Origin: a virus | Taxonomy: Duplodnaviria > Heunggongvirae > Uroviricota > Caudoviricetes | DNA length: 29,020 nt | Strand: one strand, 5' to 3' | IMG/VR virus record: IMGVR_UViG_642979322_000012 | Shown here: in pieces, positions 9,001-12,000 of the stretch | How the letters are laid out: each line of letters opens with the position of its first letter | Position numbering within the stretch: position 1 is the stretch's first letter | Made by a program: the position numbers

Positions 9001-12000
9001 TTCTCGATCGCTGTCTTGCAGCTGCAATTCGCGCCATCCCCAAAACCACTCAAGTTCTGGTCTCAACGGTTAGGTTGAGAGTTCGTCGATGTTAAAGAGC
9101 CTGCCAATCTGTTCCTTGTGGCGTCTCAGCGTCCTGCTGATGGAAATGATAGTCACATATTGTGATTTAATGGTCAATCACAAAATGTGTAAAATAAAGG
9201 TGTGACACGTTATGTGTATGATTTTTTTGTGTAAATAGTTTTACCCGCGATGGTTTTGCTTACTTAAGTCGGTGGCAACAGCAGGATGGGTGCTGAAAAG
9301 TTCGAAAAACGAGCGAATGGGGTGGTGGCGAGATGGCGGGATATGGGAGTTGTATTAAGAATTATAGTAATTTAATCAATAGTTTGGACCGGCGGGCAGG
9401 TGCTGTCCTGATAGTGATCGGCGGGCAATAAAAAACCCGGCTCGGTGGCCGGATTTGCTAAATTACTGACCTTTCTTAAGGTACAAGTTTATTAGGAAAA
9501 ATATAGTTGGCATAGCAAGCGAGGCCAAGAGAACCCCGAGCATCCATACTTTTACATCTGCTATCTTGGTTTCCAAAGCGGAAAATTTAGCTTCAAAGTA
9601 GTCAACCGATGGTTTCTTAGATAATGAAGCATCAAAATCCAGGCTCTTCTGTAAAAGTACAGCGGTGTCTCTTTTGGCGTCAGTAGAATCAGAAGATATT
9701 TTCCGGGTATCCTCTTTAATTCCTGCCATGCTGCTCTTGATGTGCGCAACTTCAGCTTCAAGAACTGCTAATCGCTTATCCATGTCGTCGCCTCCATCAT
9801 CACTTGTTGTTTGAATGATCTCAGTATCATCCATCACAACCGATGTGACAATCCGTTTTTCTTTATCTGAAGCAGCAACAGAACAAGCTTTCATCAAGAG
9901 CGTTGCTTGGCTTGATGCTACAGAAGAAAATTCCAGCCCTACTGTAGAGCCATTCTTATCAGAGTAAGCAATTACTAGCTTTCCCTCATCCAAAGATGAT
10001 TGAGCTGCATTCATCAGCTTTTATTCCTCGAACATGCTTTTCAAGGACTGATAGAAATCGAAGGCCTTCTGTTTACTTAAAGTCACGGACGCAACCTTAG
10101 TGCGCTGCATTCCTGCCACTGCGATTTCGCCATTCATATGGCCGATGACAGGGGTGCTATTGAGAAAAACGAAGTTAAAAACTTCGTAGCCATTGTTATC
10201 CGTTCCGATGGTTACAACCCCATCAGCATTAGTTTCAATATAATTTTTGGACTCCAGCACATCATTGATATGTGCTAAGGAAACTTCTTGTTTATCGCTC
10301 ATTTATGTTCTCCTGAACCAACAAAATAGGTAAAAATCTTTTCAATTTCATTAGATTAATTTGCATAAAAAGAACAGGGAAAAGTTGGATTACCAGCTAT
10401 GCGCCGACCAGAACACCTTGCCGATCAGCCAAACGTCTCTTCAGGCCACTGCGCCTTAACTACCTTGCCTATGATGCGGCAGCTATGGTCGCAATCCAGG
10501 GTTCTATATGCCGGGTTTAAAGGTACCAGGTAACTAACCCCTGCATCCTTCTCATACTTCTTGAACGTTGCCTCTGAATCACCATTTGCAGAAGCCACGC
10601 AGAAATCCCCAGACTCTACCGGCTCAGCCGGATCAACGAGTATCAGCATGCCTTCCGGAAAACTTGGACGAACCCCCTGAGGCGCCGTCATTGAATGCCC
10701 CTTCACCTCAAGCCAGAAAGCTTTTTCGCTGGCTTTTGTGGTCGTTGGGACCCATGCCTTTGCATCGCTGGCTGTGTAGCTTCCCACCTCCGAAAATGGC
10801 CCGGCCTGCACTGAAGAAAATAACGGGTATTCATATTGGCGAAATACGGCGTCTGAATCCTCGCCAAACATTATTTTTGCCGGAGATACGCCGAGTGCCG
10901 CCCCAAGAACCAGCGCGTCATCCGCGCTAACCTTTCTTGTTCCTAACTCGTAGTTCCCCAGGCGTGAAGGCGCAGCCCAGCCGCAAAGCTTGGCCAATTG
11001 AGCCTGGCTAAGTCCTTTAGCTTCTCTAAGGGACTTGATCCTTTCCCCGATAATTTCATGCATCGTTTTCATCCCTTAAATGTAACACGCAACGTGATTG
11101 AACTCTGTACACGAATTGAGGTTGACTGTTAATCACAAATTGTGTGTAATGGGTGTGTGATTAATGCTAGGGAGACCGCAATGAACAAAATTGCCCAGCA
11201 GCGAAAAAAAATCGGAGTTTCGCAAGCTGTACTAGCTTCGGCAATTGGTTGGGGGCAATCCCGCATCGCCAACTATGAGCTGAATATCCGTACTCCTGGC
11301 CTTAACGATTGCCGAATGATCGTAGAAGGCCTCAGGAAGTTAGGGTGCCAATGTTCTTTGGATGATGTTTTCCCTCCATCCAGTAACAAAGCCGCCTAAG
11401 CAGTACCCGCTCTTTCATCATGGCCTTTCACCTCTAACCGGGTGAGCAAACATCAGCGGCAAATCCATTGGGTGTGCCGCTATAACTCAATATCAATATA
11501 GGAAAATTAACAAATGGCACAAGCAAGCTACAGCAAGCCAACACAGCGAGAAATTGATCGCGCTGAATGAACCGCCCCGGGTTTCCTGGAGAGTGTTTTA
11601 TCTGTGAACTCAGGCTGCCAGATCATCGTTTCCGATGGAAGCATAATAAGCTTTTTCTGCTTCTGCCGGAGGAGTATGGCCCAGCCTTCCCAGCAATCGT
11701 CGATTGTTATACCAGTCCACCCACGTTAGTGTGGCCAGTTCCACTTCTGCACGGTTTTTCCAGCTCTTACGGTGTATTACCTCCGCTTTGTAAAGACCAT
11801 TGATGCTCTCAGCCATCGCGTTGTCATACGAGTCGCCTGTACTCCCTGTTGATGCCAGTAATCCGGCTTCTTTTAGTCGCTCCGTATAGGCCAGTGACAC
11901 ATACTGAGAGCCTTTATCGCTGTGATGGATGGTGCCAGACGGACGACGGGCCCACAACGCCTGCTCCAGCGCATCCAGCACGAATGTCGTTTCCATAGAC

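What the first reader, a model, noticed from the sequence alone, without database searches (positions are those of the whole stretch)
9463..10302. Unrecognised two-gene cassette in the rexA/rexB slot of the immunity region: candidate lysogen-expressed exclusion or defence module
Seen in sequence: two co-oriented genes (A, 93 aa, soluble; B, 183 aa, with acidic patch, coiled coil and a single C-terminal TM anchor) lie directly downstream of cI on the same strand. Gene A has a strong RBS, the two genes are 6 bp apart, and a hairpin plus U-run terminator follows B just before OL/pL, nutL and N. From a rough hand count of two 60-nt lines the cassette is about 42 percent G+C, which looks lower than the flanking genes; this was not computed exactly. 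Established knowledge: in lambda this position holds rexA-rexB, an abortive-infection system co-transcribed with cI from pRM, and the slot is a known hotspot for lysogen-expressed accessory genes. Inference: neither protein resembles RexA, RexB or any family I recognise, so this may be a novel exclusion system, for example a sensor plus membrane effector.
Basis: partly seen in the sequence, partly recalled or inferred. Interest (0 to 1): 0.85.

Follow-up and report, generated by a model that had tools for sequence, protein, structure and literature searches.

The report
Unknown two-gene cargo behind prophage repressor
Two small genes of unknown function sit directly behind the repressor gene of the Shiga-toxin-1 prophage of E. 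coli O157:H7, in the exact slot where phage lambda keeps its rexAB exclusion genes; they are real, swappable and made in uninduced lysogens, so they are a good but untested candidate for a new anti-phage module.

Summary
On the minus strand, cI (10425-11072) is followed by gene A (10021-10302, 93 aa), gene B 6 nt later (9463-10014, 183 aa) and a terminator (9433-9456). G+C is 41.5% against 52.5% for cI.

It is a discrete swappable cassette (about 9453-10391). HK544 carries it behind a different cI, and mEpX1 carries other cargo behind the same cI. In sibling phages the slot holds RexAB, BstA and several PADLOC candidate systems.

Published data show B mRNA high in uninduced EDL933, B protein only in the membrane-enriched fraction, and A protein detected.

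In 41 of 43 viral contigs A is followed at once by a B-like gene, always behind a maintenance repressor. A sister cassette sits behind cI or behind P22-type mnt, in the sieA slot. A co-varies with B's N-domain, while B's coiled-coil and anchor tail is shuffled.

No family, defence-model or fold match gives a function. The likeliest function is a lysogen-expressed exclusion module with a sensor head on a tail-anchored membrane effector. That function is inferred, not shown.

The parts
10425..11072 (-). cI repressor (HTH plus S24 peptidase). Its promoter pRM (about 11082-11111) is the presumed driver of the cassette.
   Evidence: Pfam Peptidase_S24 E 3e-26 and HTH_31/HTH_3. Annotated cI and pRM in the VT1-Sakai record; coordinates mapped with an offset of +5299.
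10303..10424 (-). cI-A spacer, 36% G+C, with no terminator and no convincing promoter. The A ribosome-binding site AGGAG lies at its 3' end.
   Evidence: Terminator and promoter scan found nothing here. RNA fold z = 0.11. Sequence read directly.
10021..10302 (-). Gene A (93 aa, acidic, soluble). Equals ECs2991, HK544c104 and phrog_12039. Predicted as a four-stranded beta-sheet plus a C-terminal helix.
   Evidence: ORF. PHROG E 7e-65, function unknown. AF2 mean pLDDT 71.5. Protein detected in the O157 rumen-fluid proteome. Only about 15 clusters among 1.84 billion representative proteins.
9463..10014 (-). [not shown]
9871..9993 (-). B N-terminal head (residues 8-48): a beta-hairpin plus helix. 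Co-varies with protein A.
   Evidence: AF2 strands 10-18 and 24-33, helix 34-48. Spearman 0.80 and Mantel p 0.0005 against A identity over 30 pairs.
9736..9798 (-). Invariant joint DGGDxMxxRLxxLExxVxxIK (residues 73-93). It is the start of the coiled coil and the apparent break-point for domain shuffling.
   Evidence: Invariant columns G74 G75 D76 R81 L85 E86 V89 I92 K93. Lowest dN/dS, 0.21. Shared with phrog_3556 proteins.
9619..9783 (-). B coiled-coil stalk (residues 78-132).
   Evidence: AF2 helix 78-132. One unbroken heptad register with d = M,L,I,I,I,A,L,F. The only PDB sequence hits are coiled coils.
9478..9546 (-). B C-terminal transmembrane anchor (about residues 157-179). It comes in at least three non-homologous types across the family.
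   Evidence: Kyte-Doolittle 19-residue window 2.15 at residue 157. Tail types shown in the alignment.
9433..9456 (-). Intrinsic terminator of the cI-A-B transcript (Timm).
   Evidence: Terminator scan. Fold -15.3 kcal/mol, z -2.5. Annotated as such in AP000400 and EF120455.
9453..10391 (.). The swappable cassette, as delimited by comparison with other phages.
   Evidence: HK544, which has a different cI, is 99.1% identical only over 9416-10451. mEpX1, which has the same cI and other cargo, is identical only left of 9452 and right of 10392.
9149..9219 (-). pL with OL1-OL3, the boundary of the lytic leftward operon. nutL lies at about 9061-9101 and N at 8678-8980.
   Evidence: Mapped from the VT1-Sakai annotation. 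N matches Pfam N_peptide, E 5e-17.

Best explanation
A-B is a mobile, lysogen-expressed cargo ('moron') cassette. It rides on the repressor-maintenance transcript (pRM -> cI -> A -> B -> terminator) of the Stx1 prophage.

I think it most likely protects the lysogen against other phages from the cytoplasmic face of the inner membrane, as follows.
- B is inserted by its C-terminal anchor and forms an oligomeric coiled-coil stalk of about 8 nm.
- The stalk carries a small N-terminal head that is held by, or guarded by, the soluble dimer-like protein A. Together these form a specificity or sensor unit.
- On a phage cue, the A-head unit releases or rearranges the stalks. The clustered single-pass tails then perturb the membrane, giving an abortive infection that works like RexA/RexB or like a holin with its inhibitor.

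Shown here:
- gene structure;
- cassette mobility;
- strict placement behind maintenance repressors;
- expression in uninduced cells;
- B in the membrane-enriched fraction;
- co-inheritance of A with B's head, with shuffling of the tail.

Inferred:
- co-transcription with cI;
- A-B binding;
- oligomerisation;
- any anti-phage activity;
- the membrane-permeabilising step.
For: 1. Anatomy. A strong RBS, a 6-nt A-B gap, no terminator between cI and A, and a terminator right after B.

2. Cassette behaviour. The same cassette sits behind lambda-type cI in HK544, and different cargo sits behind the same cI in mEpX1, with sharp identity boundaries.

3. Conserved context.
- In 43 IMG/VR loci with an A homologue, 41 have a B-like gene within -14 to +15 nt, carrying the GGD..R joint and a C-terminal TM.
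- The upstream gene is an S24 repressor in 33 loci and a non-S24 HTH repressor in about 9.
- The same arrangement holds in Serratia, Pantoea and metagenomic phages with different cro and replication modules, and for the most distant A relatives.

4. Hotspot company. Behind the same cI family there are about 50 cargo architectures in 80 loci. They include RexA+RexB, BstA, PDC-S13, PDC-S42, PDC-M11A and PDC-M24B. The literature describes this cI-N interval as a moron and defence hotspot.

5. Sister cassette. A phrog_4231 small protein is paired with a protein that has the same coiled-coil/TM tail. It lies behind cI (16 of 22 loci) or behind mnt in a P22-like phage (6 of 22), where P22 itself has orf59a-sieA.

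6. Expression.
- B protein has APEX 858 in the Triton-micelle, membrane-enriched fraction and 0 elsewhere.
- A protein was detected.

7. Modularity. A identity tracks identity of B's N-domain (rho 0.80, Mantel p 0.0005) but not B's stalk or tail (rho about 0.01).

8. Selection. Rough dN/dS is 0.2-0.3 in A, in B's head and in the joint.

9. Effector hint. One distant B homologue weakly matches a PHROG annotated 'hemolysin' (E 1e-4).
Against: - No anti-phage phenotype is known. PADLOC has no model that matches either protein.
- No enzymatic or known sensor domain is present.
- Both AF2 models are only of moderate confidence (pLDDT 65 and 71.5).
- The A/B-head co-variation could be plain genetic linkage, because the two are adjacent on the DNA.
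- A protein made at high level in every lysogenic cell would have to be tightly held inactive if it were a pore former.
- Slot neighbours also include toxin-like and unknown cargo, so position is suggestive but not diagnostic.
- One relevant paper (Brenes and Laub 2025) could not be read.
Confidence: 0.35

Rival explanations
1. Superinfection exclusion at the entry step. The membrane-tethered A-B complex sits under the inner membrane and blocks genome delivery of incoming phages, working like P22 SieA, HK97 gp15 or T4 Imm. The host cell is not killed.
For: - The sister cassette occupies the mnt-gene 16 interval where P22 carries sieA.
- B is membrane-associated and constitutively abundant.
- Neither protein has a catalytic domain, so action by binding is plausible.
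Against: B has essentially no periplasmic part: 0-7 residues follow the anchor in the three tail types. It therefore cannot meet ejection proteins in the periplasm. The slot analogy says nothing about mechanism, because the rex slot holds abortive systems as well.
Confidence: 0.15
2. Not a defence. The cargo instead tunes the lysogen or the prophage itself. It might modulate the lysis-lysogeny switch or induction (as RexA also does), membrane or stress physiology, or gut and rumen fitness of O157.
For: - Expression changes with host physiology: about 2-fold higher in an rpoS mutant, and detected in rumen-fluid culture and in piglet-gut samples.
- RexA/RexB have a documented non-defence role in the switch (abstract).
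- Many immunity-region morons are not defence genes.
Against: The family is confined to slots behind maintenance repressors in many unrelated lambdoid and P22-like phages of several genera. This points to a phage-centred function rather than one specific to O157 ecology. The variable-head, shuffled-tail diversification is typical of conflict systems.
Confidence: 0.25
3. An addiction or toxin-antitoxin-like pair. B is a membrane toxin and A its labile antidote, and together they stabilise the prophage or the repressor region.
For: - Two small, translationally close genes, with the soluble one first and carrying the stronger RBS.
- HigB-like toxin pairs occur in the same slot.
- An orphan A-like gene survives in a decayed prophage next to an IS91-family (Y2) transposase, without B.
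Against: A has no DNA-binding fold and there is no autoregulated promoter; expression appears to come from pRM. No known toxin or antitoxin family matches.
Confidence: 0.1

Closest known systems
Phage lambda RexA/RexB
   Same: Identical genomic slot and logic. Two co-oriented genes lie between the cI stop and the Timm terminator, on the maintenance transcript: one soluble protein plus one inner-membrane protein. Authentic rexAB replaces A-B behind a 99%-identical cI in locus L109.
   Different: No sequence or profile similarity: the PADLOC RexA and RexB models do not match A or B but score E 7e-110 and 5e-61 on the real proteins. RexB (144 aa in L109) has several hydrophobic segments; from own knowledge it has 4 TM helices. 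B has a single C-terminal anchor under a long coiled coil. RexA is a 279-aa DNA-binding protein, whereas A is a 93-aa acidic beta-sheet protein.
BstA (Salmonella prophage BTP1)
   Same: Lies downstream of cI and is presumed to share its promoter. It is a lysogen-expressed abortive-infection gene and occupies the same slot in sibling phages L139 and L150.
   Different: BstA is a single soluble protein of about 300 aa with a KilA-N/Bro-like domain and a DNA-encoded self-immunity element. It has no similarity to A or B.
P22 immI region cargo (orf59a-sieA behind mnt)
   Same: The sister cassette (phrog_4231 protein plus a phrog_3556 tail-anchored protein) sits between mnt and gene 16 in the P22-like phage UPF_BP1, exactly where P22 has orf59a and sieA.
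   Different: I saw no sequence relationship to SieA, but SieA itself was not compared. The window's own cassette lies behind cI, not behind mnt.
phrog_3556 / phrog_937 'hemolysin'-type phage proteins (coiled coil plus C-terminal TM; XhlA-like by recollection)
   Same: Shared C-terminal module: a glycine-rich joint, MxxRLxxLExxVxxIK, a coiled coil, KKPS, then a C-terminal TM. B residues 60-181 match phrog_3556 at E 1e-26. Distant B homologues match phrog_3556 at E 4e-28 to 8e-59, and one matches phrog_937 at E 1e-4.
   Different: All of these PHROGs lack a tested function. Pfam XhlA did not match any of them. The link to PBSX XhlA rests on my memory of its architecture only.
Mycobacteriophage two-component prophage defences (Butters gp30/gp31, Sbash gp30/gp31)
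   Same: From own knowledge, plus the title and abstract listed: a lysogen-expressed pair of a soluble and a membrane protein that excludes heterotypic phages.
   Different: Unrelated hosts and sequences. Their membrane partners are polytopic. Not compared here.
E. coli C-tail-anchored proteins ElaB/YqjD/YgaM (DUF883)
   Same: Same topology: a cytoplasmic helical N-part with a single C-terminal anchor (own knowledge).
   Different: No Pfam DUF883 match. Those are chromosomal stress proteins, not phage cargo.

Membership tests
Lambdoid immunity-region cargo (cI-N hotspot moron) | Lies between the repressor stop codon and the maintenance-transcript terminator, on the repressor strand, with no intervening terminator | tested here: met
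   Also annotated this way in AP000400 and EF120455.
Lambdoid immunity-region cargo (cI-N hotspot moron) | Exchanged as a unit between phages: same cargo with a different cI, and different cargo with the same cI | tested here: met
   HK544 and mEpX1 identity boundaries at 9416/10451 and 9452/10392. About 50 cargo architectures in 80 loci.
Lambdoid immunity-region cargo (cI-N hotspot moron) | Expressed in the uninduced lysogen | tested here: met
   [not shown]
RexA/RexB | Match to the RexA and RexB profiles; RexB a polytopic membrane protein | tested here: not met
   PADLOC and Pfam give no hit. Positive control: real RexAB from L109 scores E 7e-110 and 5e-61. B has one TM.
BstA | Match to the BstA profile (about 300 aa with a KilA-N-like domain) | tested here: not met
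   No PADLOC hit. Positive control: cluster c29 scores E 9e-121.
SieB | Pfam PF14163 | tested here: not met
   No hit for A or B. The window's true sieB is a separate gene at 8080-8661 (E 1e-25).
Tail-anchored inner-membrane protein | No signal peptide, and a single hydrophobic helix within about 30 residues of the C-terminus | tested here: met
   Kyte-Doolittle peak 2.15 at 157-175 of 183 residues, with a hydrophilic N-terminus. AF2 helix runs to residue 182.
Tail-anchored inner-membrane protein | Membrane association in cells | tested here: inconclusive
   [not shown]
XhlA-like / 'hemolysin' PHROG 937 | Significant profile match | tested here: inconclusive
   Window B has no hit. One distant homologue reaches E 1e-4. 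Pfam XhlA is absent from all scans.
[not shown]
   [not shown]
Type II toxin-antitoxin pair | Antitoxin with a DNA-binding fold and autoregulated promoter; toxin from a known family | tested here: not met
   No HTH, RHH or toxin family found. No promoter-like site upstream of A.
Anti-phage defence system (functional class) | Reduces plating or burst of some phage when present | not testable with these tools
   No experiment was found in the searchable literature. Brenes and Laub 2025 could not be read.

The most novel reading that the evidence does not exclude
A-B would be the founding example of a new superfamily of prophage immune modules. The superfamily would be built on a universal tail-anchored coiled-coil membrane effector (the GGD-MxxRLxxLExxVxxIK joint, a stalk and a single-pass tail). 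Interchangeable sensor heads with cognate small partners are grafted onto this effector: A, the phrog_4231 protein, or a zinc-ribbon protein. The modules are wired to whichever lysogeny-maintenance promoter is available (cI or Mnt). Infection would trigger stalk clustering and membrane failure.
Probability: 0.2. Interest if true: 0.75.

Novelty: new variant of a known kind. Interest (0 to 1): 0.5.

Why it matters
If A-B excludes phages, it would be a defence family absent from current finders. It would be carried and strongly expressed by the Stx1 prophage of E. coli O157:H7 (109 of 5426 complete E. coli genomes carry the region) and by prophages of Enterobacter, Klebsiella, Citrobacter, Cronobacter, Serratia and Pantoea.

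That would bear on phage therapy and biocontrol of STEC, and on which phages can superinfect Stx lysogens.

Its minimal parts, with no enzyme, a small partner protein and a single-pass tail-anchored coiled coil, would make it a simple model for how a membrane effector is kept silent and then fired. That question remains open for RexAB after 60 years.

The non-toxigenic phage HK544 carries the same cassette at 99% identity, so the idea can be tested directly and safely.

Tried and rejected
- **Profile searches for A and B.** Pfam, NCBIfam and PADLOC gave nothing above noise. PHROGs gave only 'unknown function' families.
- **PDB sequence profiles.** None for A, and only generic coiled coils for B.
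- **Fold searches.**
  - Foldseek against BFVD for A and B gave nothing at E <= 0.001.
  - The afdb50 library was not available.
- **Exhaustive profile search with A** against 1.84 billion representatives found 17 hits. Two of them, P0097 and P0098, are long repeat proteins that score by summed weak repeats. I rejected them as false positives.
- **Is A a paralogue of B's head?** hhalign gave E 0.48, so this is rejected.
- **Is A homologous to the phrog_4231 small protein of the sister cassette?** hhalign gave E 0.05 (probability 1%) and hmmsearch only a 23-residue N-terminal match. Homology is not established.
- **Internal promoter for B (a pLit analogue).** Two weak 9-of-12 matches lie inside B, fewer than the shuffled expectation, so this is rejected.
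- **Structured element in the cI-A spacer.** None.
- **ARAGORN tRNA-Ala call at 10792-10874.** It lies inside the cI coding sequence and is taken as a false positive.
- **Tai (phi80).** This tail-assembly-interference system, which acts on HK544, is a different system.
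Full report
**1. What is in the sequence**

All features lie on the minus strand.
- The repressor gene cI (10425-11072; S24 peptidase plus HTH) is followed by a 122-nt A+T-rich spacer.
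- Gene A follows (10021-10302, 93 aa), with AGGAG 7 nt upstream of its ATG.
- After a 6-nt gap comes gene B (9463-10014, 183 aa).
- Seven bases after the B stop codon there is a 9-bp G+C-rich hairpin with a T-run (9456-9433).
- The hairpin segment folds better than 198 of 200 shuffles (z -2.5). The cI-A spacer has no unusual structure (z 0.11) and no terminator-like site.
- The cassette is 41.5% G+C, against 52.5% for cI, 50% for N and 48.9% for the window. sieB and its neighbours are equally low.
- B has an acidic stretch at residues 61-80 and an unbroken heptad register over residues 78-131. It has a single hydrophobic helix at 157-175, close to the C-terminus. A has no hydrophobic segment.

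Two small corrections apply. The terminator is about 210 nt from OL3, and the genes are already annotated.

**2. Where the window comes from and what is already on record**

- The region is 100% identical to the Stx1 prophage VT1-Sakai/Sp15 and to CP-933V-type prophages of E. coli O157:H7.
- It occurs in 109 of 5426 complete E. coli genomes.
- A is ECs2991 and B is ECs2992 (also H0053).
- Phage HK544 carries the same two genes at 99.5% identity. They are annotated 'conserved hypothetical' (HK544c104, HK544c103) in a dedicated immunity-region record that also marks the terminator as Timm.
- Both proteins form their own PHROGs of unknown function. Every source names them hypothetical.
- Papers cite Degnan et al. 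2007 for the cI-N interval being a hotspot of mosaic diversity that holds rexAB and bstA.

**3. It is a discrete, exchangeable cassette**

- HK544 has lambda-type immunity and a different cI body (69% identity). It matches the window at 99.1% only from 9416 to 10451. That span runs from just past the terminator to the last 9 codons of cI.
- mEpX1 has the same cI as the window but a different two-gene cargo: a DUF6932 protein plus a 309-aa protein. It matches only to the right of 10392 and to the left of 9452.
- The unit that moves is therefore about 9453-10391. It is flanked by the conserved cI 3' end and by Timm.

**4. The slot is a defence hotspot in sibling phages**

I fetched 80 viral contigs encoding this cI family (64-100% identity) and chained the co-oriented ORFs behind cI.
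- There are about 50 different cargo architectures.
- A-B occurs in 6 loci.
- PADLOC recognises RexA+RexB (L109; E 7e-110 and 5e-61) and BstA (2 loci; E 9e-121).
- PADLOC also recognises the candidate systems PDC-S13 (3 loci), PDC-S42 (2), PDC-M11A (2) and PDC-M24B (2-3).
- HigB-like toxin pairs and many unknowns make up the rest.
- A and B match no PADLOC model.

This is guilt by association, not proof.

**5. The pair and its position are conserved far beyond E. coli**

- Homologues of both proteins occur only in Enterobacterales: Escherichia, Enterobacter, Klebsiella, Citrobacter, Cronobacter, Serratia, Pantoea, Salmonella, Yersinia, Rahnella and others.
- An exhaustive profile search with A over 1.84 billion representative proteins found only about 15 genuine clusters, all 85-103 aa.
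- In Serratia, Pantoea and metagenomic phages the order cI -> A -> B -> N-side is kept, although cro, cII and the replication genes differ. The same holds for the most distant A relatives.
- In 43 IMG/VR loci, 41 have a B-like gene starting -14 to +15 nt after A, with the conserved joint and a C-terminal TM. The two exceptions are a locus that ends too early and one aberrant ORF call.
- The upstream gene carries an S24 GxSM motif in 33 loci. In about 9 loci it is a non-S24 HTH repressor.
- Rough dN/dS is 0.25 for A, 0.30 for B's head and 0.21 for the joint. dS is near saturation, so these values only indicate purifying selection.

**6. A wider family and a second slot**

- B residues 60-181 also match phrog_3556 (E 1e-26).
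- Proteins of that PHROG share B's joint, stalk and tail but have other N-termini.
- In P22-like phage UPF_BP1 and in 21 related viral contigs, such a protein (146-149 aa) follows a different small protein (phrog_4231, 87-94 aa).
- That pair lies behind an S24 cI in 16 loci and behind mnt in 6. The mnt position is between mnt and gene 16.
- In P22 itself that interval holds orf59a and sieA.
- In Salmonella phage S107 a 125-aa member follows a zinc-ribbon protein.

The tail module is therefore combined with at least three kinds of head and partner. The cassettes are always parked behind a lysogeny-maintenance repressor. Homology between A and the phrog_4231 protein could not be established.

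**7. Modularity inside the cassette**

I compared 30 distinct A-B pairs.
- Pairwise identity of A correlates with identity of B's N-terminal domain (Spearman 0.80; Mantel p 0.0005).
- It does not correlate with B's joint/stalk (0.01) or tail (0.01).
- The tails fall into at least three unrelated types.
- The invariant stretch DGGDxMxxRLxxLExxVxxIK (G74 G75 D76 R81 L85 E86 V89 I92 K93) sits exactly between the co-varying and the shuffled parts.

A plus B's head therefore evolve as one unit, and the stalk/tail is exchanged. A and the head are neighbours on the DNA, so linkage alone could give this pattern. A physical interaction is an inference.

**8. Structure predictions**

- Protein A (47-sequence alignment, pLDDT 71.5): a disordered N-terminus of about 27 residues, a four-stranded antiparallel sheet and a C-terminal helix at 77-92.
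- A is acidic (pI 4.85), which argues against nucleic-acid binding.
- Protein B (pLDDT 65): a hairpin at 10-33 plus a helix at 34-48, a disordered acidic linker at 49-77, a helix at 78-132 and a helix at 137-182 that includes the anchor.
- BFVD gave no significant match for either protein. PDB sequence profiles gave none for A and only generic coiled coils for B.

**9. Expression and localisation (from the literature)**

- The authors saw no predicted TM and proposed an atypical lipoprotein without a leader (PMC3210124). The C-terminal anchor is a simpler explanation.
- ECs2991 (A, 10 kDa, Q8X2Z1) was detected in O157 grown in rumen fluid (PMC3936929).

Both genes are therefore expressed without induction. 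Co-transcription with cI is likely from the anatomy but has not been shown directly.

**10. Interpretation**

Firmly supported: A-B is a mobile, lysogen-expressed cargo cassette of the immunity region. It encodes a small soluble protein and a tail-anchored coiled-coil membrane protein.

Most likely, at about one chance in three for the specific model and about one in two for any anti-phage role: an exclusion module that works like RexAB.
- A plus B's head would form the specificity unit.
- The conserved stalk and tail would form the membrane effector.
- The effector's architecture recalls holin-associated or 'hemolysin'-type phage proteins, but only one weak PHROG hit supports this.

Rivals:
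- A block to DNA entry. This is disfavoured because B has almost nothing outside the membrane.
- A role in lysogeny control or host physiology.
- An addiction pair.

It is not a member of the Rex, BstA or SieB families.

**11. Novelty**

The kind of element and the slot are known, and the ORFs have been annotated for over two decades. The proteins belong to no characterised family, and I found no functional study. Two possibly relevant papers could not be read.

I rate it a new variant of a known kind. It is a solid candidate rather than a surprise.

Noticed in passing
window 11568-12877: A 1310-bp IS3-family element (annotated IS1203, that is IS629-like) is inserted with a 3-bp duplication inside cII, at about codon 18. 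It splits cII into 11514-11567 and 12878-13123, and it lies between pR-cro and O-P. Sakai and VT1-Sakai lack it, and only about 6 complete O157 genomes share this junction. This Stx1 prophage probably cannot make its own CII and may be impaired in lytic gene expression, while cI-A-B stays intact.
   Followed up: partly
window 12426-12542 (-): Rfam ALIL pseudoknot (121 bits). This is the programmed-frameshift element between orfA and orfB of the IS.
   Followed up: no
window 20723-20932 (+): Rfam STnc100 sRNA (177 bits), just downstream of an ORF of stx1A size (19410-20366). By recollection, this family corresponds to the short late-promoter transcript of Stx phages.
   Followed up: no
window 7333-7391 (-): Rfam lambda cIII thermoregulator element (88 bits), next to the DUF2528/Ea10-like gene at 7451-7819.
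   Followed up: no
window 8080-8661 (+): A separate known exclusion gene, sieB (Pfam SieB, E 1e-25), lies on the opposite strand just beyond N. The prophage therefore already carries one recognised exclusion function within 1 kb of the cassette.
   Followed up: no
window 10792-10874 (-): ARAGORN calls an 83-nt tRNA-Ala(cgc) entirely inside the cI coding sequence. This is almost certainly a false positive.
   Followed up: no
loci L091/L100/L105 (behind cI) and L095: Other cargo pairs in the same slot repeat the 'small soluble protein plus single-pass coiled-coil membrane protein' design with unrelated sequences. One pair is 162 aa + 206 aa. Another is a zinc-ribbon protein of 111 aa + 147 aa, which echoes the zinc-ribbon/phrog_3556 pair of Salmonella phage S107 (L019 3050-3794). 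This may be a recurrent architecture for immunity-region cargo.
   Followed up: partly
L011 (mEpX1) 3662-5070: With the same cI as the window, mEpX1 carries a DUF6932 (nucleotidyltransferase-like) protein plus a 309-aa protein of unknown function. This is another uncharacterised two-gene cargo in the same slot.
   Followed up: no
L016/L017 4001-4303: An orphan, diverged A-like gene (100 aa) without B lies next to an IS91-family (Y2) transposase and near smpB in two bacterial genome assemblies (organism not determined). It is apparently a remnant of a decayed prophage at the ssrA site.
   Followed up: no
[not shown]
   Followed up: yes
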